DNA of 32,000 nucleotides, from positions 570,001 through 602,000 of the forward strand of contig JBAZVE010000001.1 in NCBI GenBank assembly GCA_041661045.1, read 5' to 3'. Within the stretch, counting starts at the first letter, position 1; every line of letters begins with the position of its first letter. The notes beneath the pieces were generated by a model, which was given only the letters and a program-made list of their open reading frames with translations, had not been told where the DNA came from and did no database searches. The stretch comes from Candidatus Saccharimonadota bacterium. Lineage in GTDB: Bacteria; Patescibacteriota; Gracilibacteria; UBA1369; 2-02-FULL-48-14. Position numbers and translations under genes: made by a program. Positions 3,982 to 24,673 of the stretch are shown in pieces.

Positions 3982-5649
3982 CTACGAGTTTTTTAAATGT
4001 TCCGCTTGTCGCTCTGCAGCTATCTGGTCCCTCTCATCTTGAGCAAGATTGCGTACATCGAATACAGGCCAATCTGGATTTTTTTCTGGGTCATCTTCTA
4101 TCTTTGGATCTTTTTGTCGCTGTTCTTGTATGGCAAAAGGATTAGACAATAAAGCGAGTCCTTTGTCCCCCTTTGCCTGATCCGAAAGGAAATGAACGAC
4201 TACACTGGTGATGCTCAAGGTTATTTCTTTGATCTTCTCCTCCATTGAGGCGATTTCCCTCACGAAGTCGGCTTGGCGTCCTATGCCATTTAGATACCTA
4301 TAAGTTCTTTCGAACTGAGCTTTATAATCTTTTACTCGTTCATCCTCCTCCAGTAAGCTTTCGACTTCTTCTTCGATGTGAACCGTCAAAGGGACTCCGG
4401 CATTTCCTTGGCGATTGTTGAACCAGGCTTGGAGGGTCTGGTTTTCTTTCAAAGCTTGGAAGACGATGTCCCGAATGGCGCAGTAGCTTGAACCCATATA
4501 ACCCCGATATTTTTCTCCGGCCGCAGGAAGCGTTAAGGCGCAAGCCTGAAGGAATAGGGGTTTTGGATAGAGGTCGGTTTTCATAAAATCGAGAAAAGCT
4601 TCCAGGGAAGGGAAAATGTCTCTTGCATCTATACCCTTCTTTAGTCGTTCAGTAGGTGCCTCCAGAACCTCTCGAAGTTTCCCCGTTTTTTCGTCTATCT
4701 CAAGGATCAAGCTGTCTTCTGGCGCAGGGGAAAAATGTTCGACGACGAGATTCTCTAGGATCGGGATCTCTGTATCAAAACTAAAAAAACTCACCGGGGA
4801 GTTTTTTCCGATTCGGAGTTCTTGAGCAAGAACCCCATGTTCTCTCAAGAGTCCGAGAAATTGTCGGGCTTGACCGGCATTTTTTAATCCAGCCAACTCT
4901 TCCTGCATGCGTGTTAAAATCAGTTTTTTTGCCTCTCGTATCACCAAATCGTAGTCCTCTCTTGCAATGCTATACTTTACTGTAGGGGTTGAGGGTTCCA
5001 CGTCAGAGTCCTGCCCTCCTTGGCTCTGAGAATATTCAGTATAAGCTGCATGGACTCGTTCGTCCTGCTCTCGAATGAGAGCAGTGAGTCTTTTGGCGGA
5101 GGCATCAACTTCAGGGTCTAAATCATCTCTGGAATAAGCGATTTCTGTTCCAGGAGCTTCAGATTCTGGGAAGAGGAGGGAAAGGTAGACTTCTTGAATG
5201 AATTGAGTGGCCGATAAACCTTGGAACACTTGCTCTACGGCCTGACCTTTACTTAGGGCTGCGAGCATCTTGATTGCGAAGGCTCGCTGAGGCATAGGGG
5301 CAGGGATGTGCATAATGTCTTCCTCTAGCTGGGTATCTCCCAAGCGAGCTCTGTTCAGTCTTTTTTCCTGTGTTTCAAGCATGTCACGCAAATATTTTTC
5401 GACAGCCCTTCGTACTTGTATTACCGCATCCAATCCTTTGGGGAATGCTTCGTCCCGCAGTAATTGGATAAAAGTATCGGACATTCGTTTGAGTACGGTG
5501 GCCATTTTGTCGGCTTCTCCTACTGGGCTTTGACGGATCACATTTGTAGTGCGCTCTTGAAGAATTCGGTCTAATTCAGCTAAATTCGTTTCCAATTCAG
5601 CAAAGAGGCCTGCATTTTCTGGCGAAACATCAAGGGGGGTAGGGGCCAT
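3982..5649 (-). CDS. hypothetical protein (555 aa, acidic, helical, no recognised domain)
   Basis: Long uninterrupted ORF with ATG start and protein-like composition, preceded by a good sigma70-like promoter. No motif recognised. Confidence 0.7.
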   Translation of the reverse strand: MAPTPLDVSPENAGLFAELETNLAELDRILQERTTNVIRQSPVGEADKMATVLKRMSDTFIQLLRDEAFPKGLDAVIQVRRAVEKYLRDMLETQEKRLNRARLGDTQLEEDIMHIPAPMPQRAFAIKMLAALSKGQAVEQVFQGLSATQFIQEVYLSLLFPESEAPGTEIAYSRDDLDPEVDASAKRLTALIREQDERVHAAYTEYSQSQGGQDSDVEPSTPTVKYSIAREDYDLVIREAKKLILTRMQEELAGLKNAGQARQFLGLLREHGVLAQELRIGKNSPVSFFSFDTEIPILENLVVEHFSPAPEDSLILEIDEKTGKLREVLEAPTERLKKGIDARDIFPSLEAFLDFMKTDLYPKPLFLQACALTLPAAGEKYRGYMGSSYCAIRDIVFQALKENQTLQAWFNNRQGNAGVPLTVHIEEEVESLLEEDERVKDYKAQFERTYRYLNGIGRQADFVREIASMEEKIKEITLSITSVVVHFLSDQAKGDKGLALLSNPFAIQEQRQKDPKIEDDPEKNPDWPVFDVRNLAQDERDQIAAERQAEHLKNS

Positions 5650-5671
5650 TTTATTTTAAATAAGTAGATTT

Positions 5672-13273: not shown

Positions 13274-14026
13274 ATGAATTCAAGGCAAAAGGCACTTCGA
13301 CTCGAGGCGTTGGAGCTCATTTCAAGAATGGGAGAGGGGTCCAGTGGGCGGATGCTTTCGTCCATTGATCTTATTGAAGGGCTTTATTTTGGAGAAGAAA
13401 ATGGTCGACAGATTTTTAAACATGACCCCCGTTTGCCCCAGTGGGAAGAGCGAGATTATTTTGTACTCTCAAAAATTGAAGCTTTGCCGGGACTCCACGC
13501 GGTTTTGAAAAAAGCGGGATATTCTTTGCCGGAGGTGTTGCCCTTTTTCCCAAATCGTAAGGTCCCGGGAGTGGAAGTGACCACAGAGCAACACGGGTAT
13601 GGACTTTGTATGGCGGTGGGGATGGCGCAGGCGATTCAAATTGGGCGACTCAATCAACATGTTTTTTGTTTGGTTGGAGATTATGAATTGGATCATGGCT
13701 CTGCTTGGGAGGCGATTATGGTTGCGGCGGAGCGAAAGCTGGATCGCTTGTGTTTGATTTTGGATGAGAACAGTCCCAATGACATTTTGTGGCAAGAACG
13801 CTTTGAATCTTTTGGGTGGAAAGTGATTAAACTGCGGGATGCCCACGATCACGATGAAATTGTGTATGGAATCATGAAGGCTCGCCTCACGCTGCGAAAA
13901 CCCACTTGTATCTGGGCACCCACCAAGAAATCGGCCGGAGTCCCTTTTGCGGAGCGAAAAGTTGAATATGATGACGCTGTTTTTTCGGAAATGGAACTGC
14001 AGGAAATCCGTACCCATCTTCTCTGA
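13274..14026 (+). CDS. transketolase N-terminal-subunit-like protein (divergent, probably degenerate)
   Basis: Collinear by hand with split-transketolase N subunits: LSSIDLIEGLYF, RDYFVLSK, PGVEVTT, VGDYELDHGSAWEAIMVAA, LILDEN, FGWKVI. However, positions normally holding conserved His or Gly residues are substituted (see findings). Confidence 0.7.
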   Translation: MNSRQKALRLEALELISRMGEGSSGRMLSSIDLIEGLYFGEENGRQIFKHDPRLPQWEERDYFVLSKIEALPGLHAVLKKAGYSLPEVLPFFPNRKVPGVEVTTEQHGYGLCMAVGMAQAIQIGRLNQHVFCLVGDYELDHGSAWEAIMVAAERKLDRLCLILDENSPNDILWQERFESFGWKVIKLRDAHDHDEIVYGIMKARLTLRKPTCIWAPTKKSAGVPFAERKVEYDDAVFSEMELQEIRTHLL

Positions 14027-17810: not shown

Positions 17811-18443
17811 ATGAAAAATTCTCCTCGTGAAATAGGGCTCGCAAGCGTTTTGGCACTGGGTTTAACGGCTTCGGATGCGCGTGCGGATGAGGGGAATGGA
17901 TTTGTCCAGTGTTTTGATGGGTTGAGGAAAGATGGGTATCCACTGAGCCGACTTTCAAATTTATGTGACCCTTGCGATAAGAAGGAAGAAAAATCGATTG
18001 GCAACGCCATTGATGTTATTAGGGGAAGAGACCTTTCTCCTCTCCTTTTGAGCATGTGTGGAGGAGACGAGGCTTGTAGACAGTCTCATGAAGAGATCCA
18101 GCCTCAAGTAGTAAGAGAACTCCAAAGGGCTCAAGTTTTTTGTCCTGAAGCACCGATACAATCCATTGATGGAGAGCCGTTGTCTACGCTTGCGCCGGTT
18201 TCCCCAAATGCAGATCATCCCGGGCAAATTGTAGTTTCCCCTGTGGTGATTGAGGATTTGGATGCACTGGCGCTTGCGTTGTTTAAGCAAGGGACAGCTT
18301 GGGTCTTTGAAGAACAGGAGTCTCAGGATTCACTTACACCCACGGCTCCTTCGAAACCTGGTCGAGAAAACCGCACCCCGTATTTTTTAAGGCGACAGAC
18401 AGTTCTGGCGAGTGTGGAGGGACCTGATGTTCAAAAATGGTGA
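17811..18443 (+). CDS. secreted hypothetical protein (210 aa)
   Basis: Signal-peptide-like MKNSPREIGLASVLALGLTASDARA. Cys-containing with no recognised domain. The last codon and stop (TGG TGA) lie inside repeat copy R1. Confidence 0.6.
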   Translation: MKNSPREIGLASVLALGLTASDARADEGNGFVQCFDGLRKDGYPLSRLSNLCDPCDKKEEKSIGNAIDVIRGRDLSPLLLSMCGGDEACRQSHEEIQPQVVRELQRAQVFCPEAPIQSIDGEPLSTLAPVSPNADHPGQIVVSPVVIEDLDALALALFKQGTAWVFEEQESQDSLTPTAPSKPGRENRTPYFLRRQTVLASVEGPDVQKW

Positions 18444-18572
18444 TCGCGGCAGGAGGACGCTCACTTCGTTCGCTAGACGGTCGCTAAAGCTCCCTTACGA
18501 ACCTTTTACGGTTCGACCGCTTCTGACGAAGCACACCATTCCACTGGTGGGCAAGCCACCATCGAAATGGTG
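18438..18572 (-). repeat. direct repeat R1 (~135 bp), ending (minus-strand sense) in a copy of the tRNA-Arg 3' end
   Basis: Differs from 22288-22423 by only one 1-nt indel and one C/T substitution. 18438-18455 (tggtgatcgcggcaggag) matches the tRNA 3' end at 22419-22436 (tggtggtcgcggcaggag) at 17 of 18 positions. Confidence 0.9.
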
Positions 18573-18622
18573 TCCAGCTACGGAAAGGTTACTTTCTCAT
18601 TACCCTCCGTGCAACACTGAAA

Positions 18623-18646
18623 AGGCCCACAGAGTTTCAGGGGCCT
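18623..18646 (-). terminator. possible intrinsic terminator of the 1098 aa gene
   Basis: Minus strand reads AGGCCC, a 12 nt loop, GGGCCT, then TTTC, starting about 40 nt downstream of the stop at 18687. The stem is 6 bp and the U-tract is short. Confidence 0.35.
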
Positions 18647-18686: not shown

Positions 18687-21600
18687 TTATGAGTCCAGCT
18701 TTAAAAGCGTTTTAATCTCTTGAAGTAGTCCGAGCTCGTCGGTCGTACTGTCGCCAGTTAGGCAGCCCTCCGCCAATTCTTTGAATTGGGGGCGCTCTTT
18801 CTCTGATGAGAGCCTGTAGGCAGTCAGCCAAAGAGCTTTGATAAAGTCCTTGAAAAGTTCCTTTTCACTATCCTCTTGAAGGGCAAGTGTTTTGTAGTGA
18901 CCTAGCATAATGCGAGTCATGGCTTTGAGCATATTTACCTTGTCCTCAAAGAGGATTCCAGTTTTGAAGAAACGTTCTATGAAGTTCAAAATTACCCCGT
19001 AAAAACTCGAAACAGTTGAGCCTGGAAAGGTGATTTCATTGAGCAGGTGATACATCCGTATCGAAATAGTGAAGGTCACCCCAGTGGGAGTTTTAAATTC
19101 AAGGGAAGGAAGCTGTTTCCGTTCAATTTTCTCTAAATCGTCGAGAGCAATGTAAAACAGGTCTGCACCGTTATAAGGAATGAATTTATAAAGAAGCTCG
19201 GCTACCCCTCCTTTGATTAACGCAAACTGCTTTTCATCAATGTACTTTTCCTCCAGCGCTTCTTCAAAGATCGCGAAAGTGTTGGAAGTTGCGATGCCTT
19301 CGTTCTCGAGAGCTATGGAAAGTTGAGCGTCGTCGGTAATGAATGTAATCCCATCTCTTTCAGCGATCCTTACGCTGTTTATAAGCCATCTTGGGAAAAG
19401 CTCTTCGATGCCTTTCACATTGAACACCCCACTGGTAATGTCGTCGTCGTAGAGTAAGACGCTCTCTGAGTTTGCATTGATGAACTGCCATAGTCTGCGA
19501 AGGGCTGGATCTTCTTCCGAAAGAAGGTCGTTTTGTACCTGTTGAAAAAGTTCACGGTGAATGACGAGAGTCTTATTGAACATGATTAAAAGACCCAGCT
19601 GGTTGCTTTTGGAAAGATTGATCAGCGCATTGTAATCCATCACTACCAAGTTTTTTGCCAGGAAGGATTTCCTTTGTTTTGGACTGCGTGGACAGTCGTG
19701 GTAGTCAATCGTAAAAGTGGTATCACCGCTCGCTGCCCCAACCACAAGAGCCTTTGGGTAGCTCTTCCCGAAGTACCTTTGGAGCCAATAGGTAGTGAGC
19801 TTTTTTTCTTGGTAGAGCTTCTTTCCCTTTTCGTAAAATTCCTTTTGTCTTTTGAATATATCTAAAGCTTCTTCACTGAGTTGATCGTTTGCATCCAGGA
19901 CTCTAACTGGTTTCATAACCGTTACATACTTATTCAACTCCATCATATTTTTAACAAGACGATCGGTTTCCTCTGTAGAGCCATACCTCATTGCCAGAGC
20001 CATGTACTGAGAGAGTATTTGTGGCAGCACTTCCTTATCTTCTTCAAAAATTCTTTTTGCCTCTTCTATAGTGGCAATCGCCTGGTTTTTTTCATCAGCC
20101 AAGGCATATGCAGTGCTTAGGTTGAGCCAGTAGTTGGGGTCTCCTGCTTCCACGGCGTAGGCCTTGAGTTCTTTCAGTACCTTGATTGCCTGCTGTGGTG
20201 CGCCGCTCTGTAAGAACTTGTGAGCAATATAAAATTTTTCTCGATAATCCATGTCATTGTAAGATTCCCATTGCATCAAAGAGTTGTAAGCCTCATCAAA
20301 GAGCCGCTCATTTAACTTTTTGTGAAATACAGCAACCCGAAGTTGTTGGAGTTGATTTTCACCCAAGTCTTCAAGAGTGATGCTTTTAAGTAGGGAGTCG
20401 CTTTTTTTCCCTAGCCACTCAAGGCAGATAACGAGATCTACCTTCATGTTGTTCACAAGACGAGGGCCCTGTCCTTCTGACTTTGCCAACTCAATCGCTT
20501 CCTCTATTTCTTTGGCGGCCATGGCAACTTTGCTGCCATTTTTAAGGAAAGGAATTGGGGTAGGTTTTTCACGATCTACATCTTCCTTTTGAGCAACGAC
20601 TAGGAGTGCACGAGCATGTGAGTATCTAACTTGGGAGGACTGTGGAAACACCTCTTTTAGTTCTGTAGAAAGAACCAATGCATCTGTGCTTTCATCAAAA
20701 ATCAGAAGCGAGTCGATCAACCCCGCAGCGAGGAACTCGTCATCATGAGAAAGTTTTTTAAGCTCATCCAGATGGTCAAATACAAACAGCTTCATCTCAT
20801 CAAGCTTTTGAGCTCTCAAGAAGGCTTGAAGTTTTAACCCCTGAAGCTCTGCAGATTGATCTTTGCCCGCCATTAACGCGGTAATACGCTTCTCAGCCTC
20901 TTTGAATGTCTCTTTGGTTGCCACATTCAGCAGCGCTTTCACCAAGTTAATTTGGGCATTTTTCTGCTCAGGGTCAACCTCAAGGGCCTTTCTAAACCAC
21001 TGCACGGCTTTATCAAAGTCTCCACCAGCAGAAGGGGATCTGTTGTAACATGCTCCTAAATTATTATAAGCACGCGCCAGGTCAGGATCTTCGGGACTTG
21101 TCTTCTCCAATCCTGTTATGAGGATGTGAAGTTTCTTTTTTGCCTCCTCAACATCTCTTTGAAGTAAGCCCTGAACCTCTCGGAAGATTCGCTCCTTCCC
21201 TTTCAAGACATCAAATTGAGAGAGGAGCAGCTCATGCGAGGCGAGCCCAACGGCTTTGATGTCATGGAGCTCACTTTGTGTTTCAAGGCTTTCCTCTAAG
21301 ATCTGATCTTGCTTATGGAGGAGCTCAAAGTTCGTGCCTTTGAAAAATTCCCTCATTAAGTGTTCGTCCTCAACGACAAGGCTGCTTAAGTTTTCAACAT
21401 CCCAAATCTCTGGCAAAGGCAGTCCGATTCCCTTTGCATACTTTCGCACTTCGTCCTTACTCGTTGGAGATGCGGTACACGACAAACAAAAAATGATTTC
21501 GGCAGGCTTACCGTCTATGTGCGTTTGATTGAAGTAACGATTTTTTATACCATCCAGTTCTTTCTTGAGTTCCGCAGTTGAATTAGATTTCCACCGTTTG

Positions 21601-21983
21601 CATTGAAAAAGGACAAACCCTCCTTCTTTTCTTGATATTACATCACGGTTTTTATCCCCAGGCCCTCCATACTTGAGAGGGTTGGGGTATTTACCGACGC
21701 GGCTTACAAGTCCAAGAATTAAATCTTCAAAACGATCTGCACTGAGGCCGTTCAGAGGGAGTGATCCTTCAATCATCACAGAGGGCCTTGACTCCTGCTG
21801 ACCCCCAAAAGTGACTCCAAGAGCTTTTGATAACTTGTCTAAAGTTTTTGAGGTAGGCTGATTACGCCCTTGCTCGATTTTGAAGAGGGTGTTAAGGCTC
21901 ACCTCTGACTTCTCTGCTAGTTGTTTTTGCGTCAGTCCGCGGTTCTTTCTAGCCTCCGCGATTTCTTGTCCGATGTTTCTCAT
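18687..21983 (-). CDS. 1098 aa multidomain protein: XRE-type HTH + Mrr-like restriction-endonuclease (PD-(D/E)xK) domain + TPR/helical repeats + PIN-like domain
   Basis: Domain calls are by eye.
- HTH: aa 1-58, GLTQKQLAEKSEVSLNTLFKIEQGRNQ.
- Mrr_cat-like: aa ~83-215, FEDLILGLV..GGPGDKNRDVISRKEGGFVLFQCKRW..IIFCLSC..EIWDVENLSSLV (QCKRW at nt 21591-21605).
- TPR-like: for example ARAYNNLGACYNRSPSAGGDFDKAVQWFRKALEVDPEQ and NYWLNLSTAYALADEKNQAIATIEEAKRIF.
- PIN-like: aa ~778-905, LVVMDYNALINL..LLYDDD..ITFITDDAQLSIALENEGI (nt ~19269-19652).
No Walker A motif was seen. It is certainly a CDS; the confidence value refers to the domain interpretation. Confidence 0.6.
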   Translation of the reverse strand: MRNIGQEIAEARKNRGLTQKQLAEKSEVSLNTLFKIEQGRNQPTSKTLDKLSKALGVTFGGQQESRPSVMIEGSLPLNGLSADRFEDLILGLVSRVGKYPNPLKYGGPGDKNRDVISRKEGGFVLFQCKRWKSNSTAELKKELDGIKNRYFNQTHIDGKPAEIIFCLSCTASPTSKDEVRKYAKGIGLPLPEIWDVENLSSLVVEDEHLMREFFKGTNFELLHKQDQILEESLETQSELHDIKAVGLASHELLLSQFDVLKGKERIFREVQGLLQRDVEEAKKKLHILITGLEKTSPEDPDLARAYNNLGACYNRSPSAGGDFDKAVQWFRKALEVDPEQKNAQINLVKALLNVATKETFKEAEKRITALMAGKDQSAELQGLKLQAFLRAQKLDEMKLFVFDHLDELKKLSHDDEFLAAGLIDSLLIFDESTDALVLSTELKEVFPQSSQVRYSHARALLVVAQKEDVDREKPTPIPFLKNGSKVAMAAKEIEEAIELAKSEGQGPRLVNNMKVDLVICLEWLGKKSDSLLKSITLEDLGENQLQQLRVAVFHKKLNERLFDEAYNSLMQWESYNDMDYREKFYIAHKFLQSGAPQQAIKVLKELKAYAVEAGDPNYWLNLSTAYALADEKNQAIATIEEAKRIFEEDKEVLPQILSQYMALAMRYGSTEETDRLVKNMMELNKYVTVMKPVRVLDANDQLSEEALDIFKRQKEFYEKGKKLYQEKKLTTYWLQRYFGKSYPKALVVGAASGDTTFTIDYHDCPRSPKQRKSFLAKNLVVMDYNALINLSKSNQLGLLIMFNKTLVIHRELFQQVQNDLLSEEDPALRRLWQFINANSESVLLYDDDITSGVFNVKGIEELFPRWLINSVRIAERDGITFITDDAQLSIALENEGIATSNTFAIFEEALEEKYIDEKQFALIKGGVAELLYKFIPYNGADLFYIALDDLEKIERKQLPSLEFKTPTGVTFTISIRMYHLLNEITFPGSTVSSFYGVILNFIERFFKTGILFEDKVNMLKAMTRIMLGHYKTLALQEDSEKELFKDFIKALWLTAYRLSSEKERPQFKELAEGCLTGDSTTDELGLLQEIKTLLKLDS

Positions 21984-22005: not shown

Positions 22006-22035
22006 AGTATATCATGTAGCTTGTAGTCCCGTCAA
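22006..22035 (-). promoter_or_regulatory. sigma70-like promoter for the 1098 aa gene
   Basis: Minus strand reads TTGACG (22035-22030), an 18 nt spacer, then TATACT (22011-22006), about 22 nt upstream of ATG 21983. Confidence 0.4.
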
Positions 22036-22077: not shown

Positions 22078-22269
22078 TTAAACATCAACCTTTTCAACTG
22101 TGTTTATCAGTCTATTCCTTGCAGCAGTCGCCATACTTACTACACTTTTGCCCTCAAACTCGAAGAAGGTCTCATGCTCAAATTTTCCTTGCATCCACTT
22201 GATAGTGAGGTAAGCCAACTCATCTTTCTTTTTCTGCTTTAGTGCGAAGGTAAACAAGGCTCTTGACAA
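22078..22269 (-). CDS. possible small ORF (63 aa from TTG, or 38 aa from internal ATG), unverified
   Basis: It is the only other ORF inside the repeat-bounded cassette, on the same strand and upstream of the 1098 aa gene. It has a TTG start, no recognisable motif and no obvious RBS. Confidence 0.2.
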   Translation of the reverse strand: MSRALFTFALKQKKKDELAYLTIKWMQGKFEHETFFEFEGKSVVSMATAARNRLINTVEKVDV

Positions 22270-22287: not shown

Positions 22288-22423
22288 TGGTGATCGCCGG
22301 CAGGAGGACGCTCACTTCGTTCGCTAGACGGTCGCTAAAGCTCCCTTACGAACCTTTTACGGTTCGACCGCTTCTGACGAAGCACACCATTTCACTGGTG
22401 GGCAAGCCACCATCGAAATGGTG
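22288..22423 (-). repeat. direct repeat R2 (~136 bp), immediately 3' of tRNA-Arg and overlapping its CACCA end
   Basis: Near-identical to 18438-18572. 22288-22306 (tggtgatcgccggcaggag) is a second degenerate copy of the tRNA 3' end. The proximal end shares tggtg (22419-22423) with the tRNA. Confidence 0.9.
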
Positions 22424-22495
22424 GTCGCGGCAGGAGTCGAACCTGCGACCCTCAGCTCCGCAAGCTGATGCTCTATCCAACTGAGCTACGCGACC
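22419..22495 (-). tRNA. tRNA-Arg (anticodon GCG), CCA encoded
   Basis: Hand-folded cloverleaf from the reverse complement: GGTCGCG-TA-GCTC-AGTTGGATA-GAGC-A-TCAGC-TTGCGGA-GCTGA-GGGTC-GCAGG-TTCGACT-CCTGC-CGCGACC-A-CCA. All four stems are fully Watson-Crick paired. 77 nt. Confidence 0.9.
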
Positions 22496-22555: not shown

Positions 22556-24673
22556 CTAGTTTTGGAAGCGGGCGGGTTTTAGGGACCAGCTGCTGTCCAG
22601 GCAGTCCACGCAGCCCAAATCCTCCAAAAGAGGGTAGAAGCTGTTGTAAGGAGTGCTCTGTCCAATCTGGATTTCACTGATGTCCCATCCCTCAGCTTTG
22701 CCCACGGTTGCGTAGGCGAGCGCATAAAGCACTTGTGCGGGGTTCCACTCAGCTCCGGAAAGGGTGAAGCTTTCGGGGATTTCTTCGCCGTTCCAGCTTC
22801 CGATCCAAGTCTCCAAGTCTTCGAGGTCGATTGCACCCGCTGTGTTTGCACTGCCGTCTGCAGACCAAGGCCCGATCATCCATTCCAAGGAAACAGAGCT
22901 TGTGCTGTTGTAACCTTCCGCCAAGGCGTAGAAGGACTCGGTGAGGGTATAGAAATCTTCTCCGTCATATGCCCAGTCCGGGGGTCCTGATCGCCAGCTG
23001 TTGAGGAGCCAAAGCGCTAGGTTTTGGCGCTCTTCGGCACTTAAAGATTCAGAGTCTGTTGAGGTGAACAAGGAAACCAGTTCGTCGCTATCCACAAAGT
23101 TGATCTTGCTGTCGTTGGTGCTTTTTTCAATCAAAAATTCCAAAGAATCCTTGATTTTAGCGTAGTTGCTCGCAATGGTGCTGGTTGAATTGATTTGGCT
23201 GCTGGGCAGTTCCGGAGTTTCGGGATATTGATAAGCCCATTGAGTGGGGCTGATGCCGGTTTTTGCGTACACCCATTTGCTCACCACACTTGTATTGAGC
23301 ACATGTGGCCCGGTATTTTCCAGTGATTCCAGTACCGTTTCAACGGAGGTGGCGCCTTTTTCCAGGTCCAAAATTCCAATGTCCATACCGGGGATTCCAT
23401 CATTCATTCGTAGCGTGTTGTTCAGCCAAAAAATACTCGTATCGGTTTCGTTGGTGGGGTCCAGTTTTGCGAGGATGGCATCTCGGCTACTCTCGTAGTC
23501 CGCTTGTGAAAGACTGGCTCCGTGATCTGAGAATCCAAAGCCCAAAACTCGACTGGGAAGGAGTTCATGAATGGCGTCGCTGCCCCCGCTTCGTTCCATT
23601 AAAAAGCCTTCAAACAACCCCACGCCACTGACCAATTCGACTGTGCCGAAGGCGTTTAGCACCGCTTCAATTCCTCCGCCACTTTCATCCACGCAACCCC
23701 CGTAAACGGGGTCTTTTTCGCAACGGACCCAAGAGGAGATGGCATCAAAGGCTTCTTGATAGCTGTAGGTTTCGCCAAGATCTTTTTGTGGACGATTCAA
23801 ATATGTGGGTTCGTGGTGACCGTGGTAGCCGAATTCAACCCAACCGTTGTCCGAAAGGTCTTCCAAATAATCCACAAGTCCCGTTTCGGAATTGCGCTCA
23901 GAGACGGTTTGCGCGTCGGCTCCTTGAAATTGGATGGTCCATGTGAAGTCTGAATCGGGATAGGAAGGCATGATGTCCTCCAAGTAGCCTCCAATGTTCC
24001 AATAACGGTCTTCGGAGAGTTCGTGATTGATGTGATCTTCGGTGTGCGCAAAGGCAAAAAGATAGGTGATATCTGCGGGGGATCCGGAAGTGTCCAAAGA
24101 AGGCCCTTCGGGGAAATCCGTTGCTACATAGGAGTCCATATTGACCATCAGCTGAGCCATTTCACCCCGAGTCACCGAATGAGCGATGTCCGTGTTTACT
24201 TTTTCCAAAATTCCTCGCGGAGCCGCCCACCAATAGTAAGGCTCGTACCATATGGAATAACAGGATTCACAGATCACCACGCCATCGGCTTCGAGCACAA
24301 TTTTTAAAGCTTCCGCCAGATTGATGAGGTTTCCGGGTTTGAAGGAGCCGTCATCATAACCATCCACAATGCCAAGGGTTTTAGCCTTGCAAATGTAGGG
24401 GGCGTACCAAGCGGCCGTTACATCATTGAAACAGAATGTTCCCTCCGACTGGCCGGGATATTTTGCCTCAATTAAAATTTTAACAAACTCCGCTCGGTTG
24501 ATGGTGCTGTCCGGGCGATAAGTCCCGTCGGCATAACCCTCCACCACTCCACTTGCATAGAGGGAGTCGATGGCCGCCTCATTCGTGTGGCCACTCGTAT
24601 CGGTGAACGCCAGTGCGGTGGGAACCGCCAGTAGACTGCAAAGGCTGACGAGAGCCAGGAGGGCTTTTTTCAT
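22556..24673 (-). CDS. secreted SLH-domain protein with large C-terminal domain of unknown function
   Basis: 705 aa with signal peptide MKKALLALVSLCSLLAVPTALA. SLH-like units are present (FTDTSGHTNEAAIDSLYASGVVEGYADGTYRPDSTINRAEFVKILIEA; FNDVTAAWYAPYICKAKTLGIVDGYDDGSFKPGNLINLAEALKIVLEA). The remainder is unassigned and could be a carbohydrate-active fold, but that is not supported by motifs I can name. Confidence 0.75.
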   Translation of the reverse strand: MKKALLALVSLCSLLAVPTALAFTDTSGHTNEAAIDSLYASGVVEGYADGTYRPDSTINRAEFVKILIEAKYPGQSEGTFCFNDVTAAWYAPYICKAKTLGIVDGYDDGSFKPGNLINLAEALKIVLEADGVVICESCYSIWYEPYYWWAAPRGILEKVNTDIAHSVTRGEMAQLMVNMDSYVATDFPEGPSLDTSGSPADITYLFAFAHTEDHINHELSEDRYWNIGGYLEDIMPSYPDSDFTWTIQFQGADAQTVSERNSETGLVDYLEDLSDNGWVEFGYHGHHEPTYLNRPQKDLGETYSYQEAFDAISSWVRCEKDPVYGGCVDESGGGIEAVLNAFGTVELVSGVGLFEGFLMERSGGSDAIHELLPSRVLGFGFSDHGASLSQADYESSRDAILAKLDPTNETDTSIFWLNNTLRMNDGIPGMDIGILDLEKGATSVETVLESLENTGPHVLNTSVVSKWVYAKTGISPTQWAYQYPETPELPSSQINSTSTIASNYAKIKDSLEFLIEKSTNDSKINFVDSDELVSLFTSTDSESLSAEERQNLALWLLNSWRSGPPDWAYDGEDFYTLTESFYALAEGYNSTSSVSLEWMIGPWSADGSANTAGAIDLEDLETWIGSWNGEEIPESFTLSGAEWNPAQVLYALAYATVGKAEGWDISEIQIGQSTPYNSFYPLLEDLGCVDCLDSSWSLKPARFQN

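What the first reader, a model, noticed from the sequence alone, without database searches (positions are those of the whole stretch)
18687..21983. Giant single-gene candidate defence protein: HTH + Mrr-like nuclease + TPR array + PIN-like nuclease, with no NTPase
This is the largest ORF in the window (1098 aa), and it has its own promoter-like and terminator-like signals.

Read by eye, it combines four parts:
- An XRE-family HTH (aa 1-58).
- A segment fitting the Mrr/restriction-endonuclease catalytic-domain pattern (FEDL...GGPGDKNRDV...FQCKRW...EIWDVENL), i.e. a PD-(D/E)xK D...QxK core.
- About 400 aa of TPR-like or helical repeats.
- A PIN-like segment with spaced acidic residues (VVMDYNALI / LLYDDD / FITDDAQL), followed by a ~190 aa helical tail.

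No GxxxxGK[ST] P-loop was found, so it is not a STAND/Avs-type ATPase. A repeat-scaffold sensor fused to two different nuclease-type effectors and a DNA-binding head follows the design logic of single-polypeptide immune or abortive-infection proteins. I do not recognise this exact combination as a named system. It is also the sole cargo of a repeat-bounded cassette at a tRNA gene (next finding).
Basis: partly seen in the sequence, partly recalled or inferred. Interest (0 to 1): 0.85.

Follow-up and report, generated by a model that had tools for sequence, protein, structure and literature searches.

The report
Giant HTH–nuclease–TPR–PIN defence-type protein
The 1098-residue gene really does encode a DNA-binding head, a restriction-type DNase domain, a long TPR repeat scaffold and a PIN RNase domain; it is a previously undescribed, GreA/B-C-less variant of the 'TPR–GreA/B-C–PIN' family of predicted anti-phage proteins, and it sits alone in a small repeat-bounded island at a tRNA gene of a tiny Gracilibacteria genome.

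Summary
ORF 18687..21983(-) encodes 1098 aa with an XRE HTH (Pfam E 8e-16), an Mrr/LmuA-type PD-(D/E)xK domain, about 400 aa of TPR solenoid and a PIN domain followed by a conserved helical extension. There is no P-loop.

Nuclease calls. Both rest on relatives that pass Pfam thresholds (Mrr_cat; PF20698 PIN-TPR-GreABC), on conserved catalytic residues (D114…Q127-x-K129; D783/E824/D885/D916) and on AlphaFold models. The C-terminal model has pLDDT 87, and its PIN part matches solved PIN domains.

Family. About 180 clusters share the linker–PIN–tail module and carry varied N-termini. The distant members are canonical TPR–GreA/B-C–PIN proteins (Kaur et al. 2021; Bab/Agp protects against phage T5). 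The window's clade has no GreA/B-C domain; this was tested and not met.

Contexts of close relatives:
- Some are standalone genes beside a Type IIG R-M enzyme with a serine recombinase, DRT8 with PDC-S20, MazF, or phage-like genes.
- A sister clade is always coupled to an AbiEii toxin gene, which is absent here.

In the window, the gene is the main cargo of a 3.85-kb unit. The unit has lower GC and is bounded by 126-nt direct repeats at tRNA-Arg.

Verdict: a real feature and a new variant of a known kind. Its function is inferred, not shown.

The parts
18687..21983 (-). Whole gene, 1098 aa (NCBI MFA6024117.1, annotated only as 'helix-turn-helix domain-containing protein')
21807..21974 (-). XRE-family helix-turn-helix, aa 4-59
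   Evidence: Pfam HTH_3 E 7.8e-16. PADLOC HTH_VI, capH and control-protein models match only this region.
21339..21761 (-). Mrr/LmuA-type PD-(D/E)xK nuclease domain, aa 75-215. Catalytic candidates are D110/D114 and Q127-C-K129.
   Evidence: Mrr_cat scores 20.4 bits on the isolated domain against a cut-off of 21. It passes the cut-off in relatives. PADLOC LmuA E 4.8e-6; 15 of 16 family domains hit LmuA. D110, K111, D114, Q127, K129 and R130 are invariant. The AF2 model shows alpha-beta-beta-beta-alpha-beta-alpha-beta.
21198..21338 (-). Low-confidence helical/disordered linker, aa 216-262
   Evidence: pLDDT below 50 at aa 217-260; poorly conserved.
19980..21197 (-). TPR/helical-repeat solenoid, aa 263-668
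   Evidence: Pfam TPR_19, TPR_12, TPR_14 and others. PDB sequence hits to consensus TPR proteins. Fold hits to OGT, Ski3, Ctr9, SPY and IFIT5 TPR superhelices.
19659..19979 (-). Conserved pre-PIN linker domain, aa 669-775. It is mostly helical with a small beta-hairpin and occupies the place just downstream of where canonical relatives carry GreA/B-C.
   Evidence: C-terminal model pLDDT 82-94. Module-HMM census. The GreA/B-C block is absent.
19191..19658 (-). PIN-fold nuclease domain, aa 776-931. Acidic tetrad D783, E824, D885 (plus D884) and D916.
   Evidence: PF20698 passes its cut-off in relatives and hits 24 of 43 members. Foldseek hits to AF0591, VapC4, PAE2754 and SMG6 PIN domains with prob 0.95-1.0 (the listed PIN hits) and target-normalised TM 0.46-0.66. 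D783 and D885 are at least 90% conserved over 103 sequences.
18690..19190 (-). C-terminal helical extension with a beta-hairpin insert (aa 960-974), aa 932-1098. It packs with the PIN domain into one unit.
   Evidence: C-terminal model pTM 0.85. Canonical GreA/B-C-containing relatives align up to about aa 1005. The hairpin insert is shared only with the closest subfamily.
22006..22035 (-). Sigma-70-like promoter candidate, TTGACG-18-TG-TATACT, 22 nt upstream of the ATG
   Evidence: 10 of 12 matches; regional count not above chance
18620..18645 (-). Weak terminator-like hairpin GGCCCCUGAAACUCUGUGGGCC followed by UUUUC
   Evidence: not exceptional energetically
18438..18573 (.). Distal copy of the ~136-nt direct repeat. 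It begins with an 18-nt copy of the tRNA-Arg 3' end.
22288..22423 (.). Proximal copy of the direct repeat (126 nt at 99% identity). It abuts and overlaps the 3' end of tRNA-Arg.
22419..22495 (-). tRNA-Arg (anticodon GCG): the integration landmark
22078..22269 (-). 63-aa ORF between the repeat and the giant gene. It has no family match, and its start lies in a terminator-like hairpin, so it may not be a gene.

Best explanation
The gene encodes a stand-alone, NTPase-free conflict (anti-phage or abortive-infection type) protein. It belongs to the superfamily built on a 'TPR scaffold + PF20698-type PIN module' with an exchangeable N-terminal effector.

Shown:
- The domain order is HTH – Mrr/LmuA-type DNase – TPR solenoid – linker–PIN–helical extension.
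- The catalytic residues of both nuclease domains are intact.
- The window clade has no GreA/B-C domain.
- The gene sits in a small, lower-GC, repeat-bounded unit at the 3' end of tRNA-Arg.
- Its closest relatives are single genes in mobile or defence neighbourhoods.

Inferred mechanism:
- The TPR solenoid is the sensor or oligomerisation platform. It holds the two nuclease domains inactive until it binds an invader-derived protein or peptide, or an altered host complex.
- Activation then lets the PIN module cut RNA and the Mrr-type domain cut DNA, which stops the infection or the cell.
- The N-terminal XRE HTH most likely autoregulates the gene's own promoter, as in the control proteins of R-M and CBASS systems. 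Alternatively it targets the DNase to DNA.
- Because the GreA/B-C domain is missing, docking into the RNA polymerase secondary channel, as proposed for canonical family members, is not expected here.
For: Domains and residues:
- Domain calls.
- Catalytic residues are invariant in 12 sequences at about 30% identity.
- In the closest subfamily: D110, D114, K129, D783, E824 and D885 are invariant; Q127 is nearly invariant.

Structure:
- The full-length model shows the PD-(D/E)xK and PIN topologies.
- The C-terminal model has pLDDT 86.9 and pTM 0.85. Its PIN part matches solved PIN domains.

Family:
- 183 representative clusters carry the C-terminal module.
- Module census of members of at least 800 aa: 14 HTH–Mrr, 12 N-ext–HTH–Mrr, 13 Mrr without the XRE HTH, 28 with other N-termini, and about 25 with a GreA/B-C block.
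- Kaur et al. 2021 describe exactly this 'variable N-terminal effector + constant TPR/GreA/B-C/PIN' logic and list REase among the effectors (PMC8195603).

Contexts of the window's own subfamily:
- L036: next to a Type IIG R-M enzyme, a large serine recombinase and a NucS-like gene.
- L054: next to DRT8 (RT + PD-DExK) and a PDC-S20 KAP NTPase.
- L039: next to MazF.
- L051: next to terminase-like and excisionase-like genes.
- L004 (P0007): in phage-like DNA.

Window:
- 126-nt direct repeats at 99% identity, three copies of the tRNA 3' end, and GC 44.1% against 48.0% for the rest.
- The flanking genes are housekeeping.
Against: - No activity of any kind has been measured for this clade.
- The window protein alone stays just under the Pfam cut-off for Mrr_cat and gives no direct PF20698 hit, so both assignments lean on relatives.
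- PADLOC recognises no complete system.
- The only experimentally studied relative (Agp) needs a partner, and no autonomous PIN-dependent activity was detected for it.
- The TPR ligand, the nuclease substrates and the role of the HTH are all conjecture.
- The GC deviation is modest, and the cassette holds no integrase.
- Only about six neighbourhoods were examined.
Confidence: 0.6

Rival explanations
1. It is primarily a selfish stabilisation (addiction/toxin–antitoxin-like) module of a mobile island rather than an immune protein. The nucleases act as a built-in toxin, kept off by the protein's own regulatory parts and by HTH autorepression.
For: - The sister clade is always translationally coupled to an AbiEii toxin gene: 4-nt overlaps or 0-2 nt gaps in at least 9 distinct loci.
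- The upstream protein matches AbiEii in Pfam at E 2.6e-21 and in PADLOC.
- A relative sits beside MazF.
- The window gene lies in a repeat-bounded unit at a tRNA.
Against: - The window has no AbiEii gene or remnant and lacks the ~110-aa N-terminal domain that accompanies AbiEii.
- No separate antitoxin candidate is present.
- A 400-residue TPR sensor is unnecessary for simple addiction.
- TA modules and abortive-infection defence overlap, so this rival is only partly distinct from the best explanation.
Confidence: 0.15
2. It is essentially a restriction-type DNase: an HTH DNA-binding head plus an Mrr catalytic domain, as in modification-dependent type IV enzymes. The TPR–PIN part would be structural or regulatory, and the PIN domain not a working RNase.
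For: - Mrr_cat and PADLOC LmuA, mREase_IV and Aga_REase matches.
- The HTH lies directly upstream of the nuclease domain.
- In Bab/Agp, no autonomous PIN-dependent first-line activity was seen.
Against: - The PIN acidic tetrad is conserved in the window clade, and D783 and D885 are conserved even across the distant canonical relatives.
- The constant part of the superfamily is the PIN module, while the Mrr domain is one of many exchangeable heads.
Confidence: 0.12
3. It is a transcription regulator of the HTH + TPR, peptide-sensing kind (RRNPP/AimR-like), with nuclease-derived domains that are no longer catalytic.
For: - An XRE HTH followed by TPR repeats is the hallmark of that regulator class (established knowledge).
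- The databases annotate the protein only as an HTH/TPR regulator.
Against: - It is three to four times larger than such regulators.
- A nuclease domain separates the HTH from the TPR.
- Both nuclease active sites are strictly conserved.
- Many family members have no HTH at all.
- No signalling-peptide gene or regulated operon lies nearby; the neighbours are a tRNA and housekeeping genes.
Confidence: 0.08
4. It is a housekeeping RNA- or DNA-processing factor of the host.
For: PIN and PD-(D/E)xK domains also occur in housekeeping nucleases (established knowledge).
Against: - Distribution is sporadic, in Omnitrophota, Planctomycetia, Gracilibacteria and unclassified MAGs.
- Every neighbourhood examined is different.
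- The gene sits in a repeat-flanked, lower-GC unit.
Confidence: 0.03

Closest known systems
TPR–GreA/B-C–PIN ('TGP') conflict systems (Kaur, Iyer, Burroughs & Aravind 2021, eLife 10:e70394; Pfam PF20698 PIN-TPR-GreABC)
   Same: - Same order: variable N-terminal effector, then TPR array, then the same PIN family followed by a shared helical extension.
- Mostly stand-alone genes.
- REase is the commonest N-terminal effector in their source data.
- A profile of the window's C-terminal module retrieves GreA/B-C-containing members.
   Different: - The window clade has no GreA/B-C domain. An HMM of that block finds nothing at E<=10 in the window protein or in P0001-P0106, although the block itself matches E. 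coli GreA/GreB at 96% probability.
- It adds an XRE HTH in front of the REase; 'HTH+REase+TPR' occurs 0 times in their tables.
- A sister clade is coupled to AbiEii; in the TPR–GreAB-C–PIN part of their main source-data table no AbiEii was found.
Bab/Agp of E. coli ECOR25 (bioRxiv 10.1101/2024.11.07.622273)
   Same: Agp is a TPR + PIN(PF20698-type) protein. It is the only experimentally tested relative and gives abortive-infection protection against T5-like phages.
   Different: - Agp has a GreA/B-C domain, in which a mutation abolishes T5-induced signalling.
- Agp carries an N-terminal amyloid motif and signals to a separate membrane-targeting partner, Bab.
- The window protein has none of these. 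It carries its own DNase head and has no partner gene.
Lamassu LmuA (Mrr-type effector) and type IV Mrr restriction endonucleases
   Same: The nuclease domain (aa 75-215) matches PADLOC LmuA PDLC03852 and Pfam Mrr_cat, and carries the D…QxK motif.
   Different: The match covers only about 75-140 residues of the nuclease domain. There is no LmuB/SMC partner and no Mrr N-terminal winged-helix domain.
AbiE type IV toxin–antitoxin/abortive-infection system (AbiEi + AbiEii)
   Same: In the sister clade, an AbiEii nucleotidyltransferase gene is translationally coupled to the giant gene. That giant gene's extra N-terminal domain + HTH occupies the antitoxin-like position.
   Different: - The gene order is reversed (AbiEii first).
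- No AbiEi family match was found.
- The window locus has neither AbiEii nor the extra N-terminal domain.
STAND/Avs-type single-polypeptide sensors with nuclease effectors
   Same: One polypeptide combines a repeat sensor with an N-terminal nuclease effector.
   Different: There is no NTPase: no Walker A motif and no NTPase family hit.

Membership tests
TPR–GreA/B-C–PIN (TGP) systems | TPR repeat array N-terminal to the PIN module | tested here: met
   Pfam TPR hits at aa 277-393 and 563-657; helical repeats over aa 263-668 in the model.
TPR–GreA/B-C–PIN (TGP) systems | GreA/B C-terminal-like domain between the TPR array and the PIN | tested here: not met
   An ~80-aa block in 31 distant relatives (28 of them at least 800 aa) matches E. 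coli GreA/GreB (hhalign 96%, E 1.3e-9). An HMM of that block gives no hit at E<=10 in the window protein or its clade. The window has a gap at that position.
TPR–GreA/B-C–PIN (TGP) systems | PIN domain of the PF20698 family | tested here: met
   The window sequence alone gives no PF20698 hit. P0005, P0006 and P0007 pass the cut-off (29-31 bits against 27.8). 24 of 43 members retrieved with the window-clade profile hit PF20698, best E 4.7e-22. The requirement is therefore met at family level, by homology.
TPR–GreA/B-C–PIN (TGP) systems | Exchangeable N-terminal effector domain; mostly a stand-alone gene | tested here: met
   N-termini vary among members: XRE-HTH+Mrr, MerR-HTH+Mrr, Mrr alone, TM and others. 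The window gene and its subfamily have no conserved neighbour.
TPR–GreA/B-C–PIN (TGP) systems | Protection against phage | not testable with these tools
   Known only for Bab/Agp.
Mrr_cat / PD-(D/E)xK restriction endonuclease fold | Match to Pfam PF04471 above the gathering score | tested here: inconclusive
   The window scores 16.3 bits (whole protein) and 20.4 bits (isolated domain) against a cut-off of 21. Relatives score 25-36 bits. PADLOC LmuA hits the window domain at E 4.8e-6. A profile search against PDB sequences found nothing.
Mrr_cat / PD-(D/E)xK restriction endonuclease fold | Catalytic D…(E/Q)xK on the beta2/beta3 strands of an alpha-beta-beta-beta-alpha-beta core | tested here: met
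   D110, D114 and K129 are invariant in both family alignments; Q127 is invariant in one and nearly so in the other. Model elements: H82-96, E103-105, E114-119, E122-129, H136-151, E160-167.
PIN domain nucleases | PIN (Rossmann-like beta-alpha-beta) fold | tested here: met
   Foldseek against the PDB returns AF0591, SSO1118, VapC4, PAE2754, SMG6 and EST1A PIN domains, with prob 0.95-1.0 and target-normalised TM 0.46-0.66. E-values are only 0.03-0.5.
PIN domain nucleases | Four conserved acidic residues at strand ends and helix starts | tested here: met
   D783, E824, D885 and D916 are invariant in A1 and A8. D783 and D885 are at least 90% conserved over 103 sequences.
AbiE type IV TA / Abi system | Adjacent AbiEii nucleotidyltransferase gene | tested here: not met
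   tblastn of six AbiEii partners against the window found nothing better than E 0.006, and that hit is elsewhere in the window. The partner is present in the sister clade only.
STAND / Avs NTPase sensors | P-loop NTPase domain (Walker A) | tested here: not met
   Regex [AG]xxxxGK[ST] gives no match. No NTPase family in Pfam, NCBIfam or PADLOC.
Lamassu | LmuA effector together with an LmuB SMC-like partner | tested here: not met
   Only the nuclease domain matches LmuA. There is no neighbouring SMC-like gene.
RRNPP/AimR-type HTH–TPR regulators | An HTH directly followed by a peptide-binding TPR domain, about 300-450 aa, with a cognate peptide gene | tested here: not met
   The protein is 1098 aa, a nuclease domain lies between the HTH and the TPR array, and no adjacent small secreted-peptide gene was identified.

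The most novel reading that the evidence does not exclude
The GreA/B-C-less HTH–Mrr–TPR–PIN proteins may be a distinct, autonomous single-gene immune system that senses invaders through its TPR solenoid without touching RNA polymerase, and fires a DNase and an RNase from one polypeptide.

In the sister clade, the same protein would double as the antitoxin/sensor of an AbiEii nucleotidyltransferase toxin, through its extra N-terminal domain plus HTH. That would be a hybrid in which a type IV toxin–antitoxin pair is wired to a giant repeat sensor.

Finding it as a mini-island at a tRNA in a 1.3-Mb Gracilibacteria (CPR) genome would make it one of the few dedicated defence genes of such reduced, episymbiotic bacteria.
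Probability: 0.3. Interest if true: 0.7.

Novelty: new variant of a known kind. Interest (0 to 1): 0.55.

Why it matters
- It extends the TPR–PIN conflict-system superfamily, which was predicted in 2021 and has a single experimental example. The extension is a well-populated clade of roughly 40 clusters at 50% identity with an Mrr head.
- That clade has dropped the GreA/B-C domain on which the published mechanistic model (docking to RNA polymerase) rests. Either sensing works differently here, or the TPR/PIN core is sufficient on its own. This gives a natural 'deletion mutant' for testing that model.
- The obligate coupling of a sister clade to AbiEii links two kinds of abortive-infection machinery that were not previously connected.
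- The host is an uncultivated, reduced-genome CPR bacterium, whose defence repertoire is poorly known. A 3.3-kb gene is 0.25% of its genome.
- The two active sites give clean, testable mutants.

Tried and rejected
- Profile search of the Mrr-domain alignment against all PDB sequences found only chance hits (SRP72, E 0.03).
- Fold search of the full-length model returned only TPR proteins and said nothing about the Mrr domain.
- The BFVD viral fold search gave one weak PIN hit.
- A second word-index homologue search with the subfamily alignment returned nothing new.
- Viral-contig scans found no full-length relative and no copy of the repeat unit.
- The ~110-aa N-terminal domain of the sister clade, the 317-aa protein upstream of P0007 and the 63-aa ORF have no Pfam or PADLOC family.
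- No inverted-repeat operator was found in the promoter region.
- Rfam and ARAGORN find no RNA gene in the repeat unit.
- I considered that the 3785-bp Logan contig carrying the identical gene might be an excised circle. I rejected this: its length equals the unique DNA between the repeats (3725 bp) plus 30 nt at each end, its ends lie inside the repeats, and they do not overlap, so it is a k=31 assembly break.
- I considered genetic code 25, because of the Gracilibacteria label. I rejected it: TGA terminates 8 of 28 long ORFs and 92% of the window is coding under table 11.
- I considered synteny with the closest relative (P0041), because both loci have an SLH-domain gene nearby. I rejected it: only the SLH repeats match, and at different positions.

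Full report
OBSERVATION

The ORF at 18687..21983 on the minus strand is real. It runs 1098 codons from ATG to TAA and is the longest ORF in the window. The window comes from a 1.317-Mb contig of a Candidatus Gracilibacteria MAG. NCBI names the protein only 'helix-turn-helix domain-containing protein' (MFA6024117.1). Some Gracilibacteria read UGA as glycine, so I checked the genetic code. TGA ends 8 of 28 long ORFs and 92% of the window is coding under table 11, so the standard code applies and the ORF is not an artefact.

DOMAINS

- HTH. Pfam gives HTH_3 at aa 8-59 (E 7.8e-16) and several TPR families at aa 277-393 and 563-657.
- Mrr-type nuclease. Mrr_cat is sub-threshold on the window protein: 16.3 bits for the whole protein and 20.4 bits for the isolated domain, against a cut-off of 21.
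  - Eleven full-length relatives at about 30% identity reach 25-36 bits.
  - The isolated window domain hits the PADLOC Lamassu-LmuA nuclease model at E 4.8e-6, and 15 of 16 family domains hit it.
  - D110, K111, D114, Q127, C128, K129 and R130 are invariant.
  - In the AlphaFold model they sit on the beta2/beta3 strands of an alpha-beta-beta-beta-alpha-beta core. This is the D…QxK version of the PD-(D/E)xK site.
- PIN. The window sequence has no direct Pfam hit.
  - Three relatives pass the cut-off of PF20698, 'PIN domain associated with the TPR-GreAB-C-PIN system'.
  - 24 of 43 members collected with a profile of the window's C-terminal part hit PF20698, with best E 4.7e-22.
  - A model of aa 670-1098 built on 18 sequences is confident (pLDDT 86.9, pTM 0.85).
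  - Its central part matches solved PIN domains (AF0591, VapC4, PAE2754, SMG6) with Foldseek probabilities of 0.95-1.0 and target-normalised TM of 0.46-0.66, although E-values are only 0.03-0.5.
  - The acidic tetrad is D783, E824, D885 and D916. These are invariant, and D783 and D885 are at least 90% conserved over 103 sequences.
'LLYDDD' is in a variable loop, and 'D894/D895' should read D884/D885.
- C-terminal module. The ~110 residues before the PIN and the ~170 residues after it fold with the PIN into one unit and are conserved with it.
- No NTPase. There is no Walker A motif.

THE FAMILY

An exhaustive profile search with the C-terminal module found 183 representative clusters. I built HMMs of each module and counted architectures among members of at least 800 aa:

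- 14 are HTH–Mrr–…–PIN–tail, like the window.
- 12 have the same architecture plus an extra ~110-aa N-terminal domain.
- 13 have Mrr without the XRE HTH; several of these have a MerR-type HTH instead.
- 28 have unrelated N-termini (transmembrane, other nucleases, a phosphoesterase).
- About 25 distant members (31 proteins of any length) carry an ~80-aa block between the TPR array and the linker.

That block aligns to the C-terminal domain of E. coli GreA/GreB with 96% probability (E 1.3e-9). An HMM of the block finds nothing at E<=10 in the window protein or in any member of its clade.

The distant members are therefore the TPR–GreA/B-C–PIN systems described by Kaur et al. 2021 (PMC8195603). 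Those authors noted a variable N-terminal effector, including REase, and mostly stand-alone genes. They proposed that GreA/B-C docks on RNA polymerase so that the PIN can cut viral transcripts, with the N-terminal effector as a back-up suicide device.

Their source tables list REase+TPR+GreAB-C+PIN hundreds of times and REase+TPR+PIN three times. HTH+REase+TPR never appears, and no AbiEii is listed in the TPR–GreAB-C–PIN part of their main table. One member, Agp, has been shown to confer abortive-infection resistance to T5 together with its partner Bab.

The window protein thus shares the TPR, the PIN family and the architectural logic. It fails the GreA/B-C criterion, so I file it as a new variant rather than as a member.

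CONTEXT

In the window:

- The gene and a doubtful 63-aa ORF are the only content between two 126-nt direct repeats that are 99% identical (18447-18572 and 22298-22423).
- Each repeat unit begins with an 18-nt copy of the 3' end of the adjacent tRNA-Arg (22419-22495). This tRNA end therefore occurs three times.
- The unit has 44.1% GC against 48.0% for the rest of the window.
- It is embedded among housekeeping genes: transketolase, PRPP synthase, ribulose-phosphate epimerase and inositol monophosphatase.
- There is no integrase. This looks like a decayed or tandem integration at a tRNA.

Contexts of the window's closest subfamily (31-35% identity, HTH at the very N-terminus):

- L036: beside a large serine recombinase, a Type IIG R-M enzyme and a NucS-like gene.
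- L054: followed by a 968-aa unknown protein, DRT8 (reverse transcriptase plus PD-DExK) and a PDC-S20 KAP NTPase.
- L039: beside MazF.
- L051: beside terminase-like and excisionase-like genes.

No neighbour is conserved across these loci. The clade with the extra N-terminal domain is different: in at least nine distinct loci an AbiEii nucleotidyltransferase gene lies immediately upstream, overlapping by 1-4 nt or separated by only a couple of nucleotides. The window has no AbiEii and no remnant of one.

MECHANISM (INFERRED)

The protein is most likely a self-contained conflict protein. The TPR solenoid would sense an invader-derived or infection-altered partner. It would then release or assemble the two nuclease domains, the PIN on RNA and the Mrr-type domain on DNA. 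The XRE HTH would autoregulate the gene from its promoter-like site 22 nt upstream, or tether the DNase to DNA. Without GreA/B-C, the RNA polymerase docking proposed for canonical members is not expected. Nothing here has been measured.

Rivals, with the evidence for and against each listed separately in the report sections:

- an addiction-type module;
- a restriction enzyme with an accessory TPR–PIN part;
- an HTH–TPR regulator;
- a housekeeping nuclease.

VERDICT

The protein is not unprecedented: it is a GreA/B-C-less, HTH-headed variant of a computationally described superfamily that has one experimental example. Interest is moderate. It offers a natural test of the published mechanism, an unexpected link to AbiEii in a sister clade, and a candidate defence gene in a reduced CPR genome.

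Noticed in passing
window 18438-18573, 22288-22423, 22419-22436: The ~136-nt repeat unit starts with an 18-nt copy of the tRNA-Arg 3' end. On the minus strand the order is tRNA(att1) – 118 nt – att2 – cargo – 118 nt – att3. This pattern is expected from two tandem integrations, or from a decayed island plus a newer one, and there is no integrase left. The 118-nt part contains a 40-nt hairpin but matches no Rfam family or tRNA.
   Followed up: partly
L001 9288-9998, L005 9270-10001, L006 1619-2380, L008 1507-2241, L012-L015 about 4900-5670: In the sister clade, an AbiEii nucleotidyltransferase toxin gene is always translationally coupled upstream of the giant gene. That giant gene then carries an extra ~110-aa N-terminal domain (MKKDWLWDKN…YWQAIYDTLKK) with no Pfam match. 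The domain may be an AbiEii-neutralising module fused to the sensor–nuclease protein.
   Followed up: partly
L054 7070-13917: Directly downstream of a close relative (P0069) lie a 968-aa protein with no Pfam or PADLOC match, a DRT8 reverse transcriptase split into two ORFs, its PD-DExK partner, and a PDC-S20 KAP NTPase. This is a compact defence island. The 968-aa unknown could be a further uncharacterised defence gene.
   Followed up: no
L004 9046-9999: P0007 lacks the HTH and the N-terminal domain. It is preceded, with a 1-nt gap, by a 317-aa protein of unknown family, in a region with terminase and ParB-methyltransferase genes. This may be a phage-borne version with a different partner.
   Followed up: no
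window 22078-22269 (-): A 63-aa ORF lies between the proximal repeat and the giant gene. It has no family match, and its start codon sits inside a terminator-like hairpin (22275->22258) that follows the tRNA/repeat. It is probably not a gene.
   Followed up: partly
window 13274-14026 and neighbours: A transketolase N-terminal-half ORF (250 aa), PRPP synthase and ribulose-phosphate 3-epimerase are clustered. There is also a 705-aa SLH-domain surface protein at 22556-24673. These are consistent with a reduced Gracilibacteria/Peregrinibacteria-like genome that uses the standard genetic code despite its taxonomic label.
   Followed up: partly
L056 6001-6213, L057 6001-6207 (IMG/VR contigs): Two viral contigs encode stand-alone matches to the Mrr-type nuclease domain only (36-41% identity over about 65 residues).
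   Followed up: no
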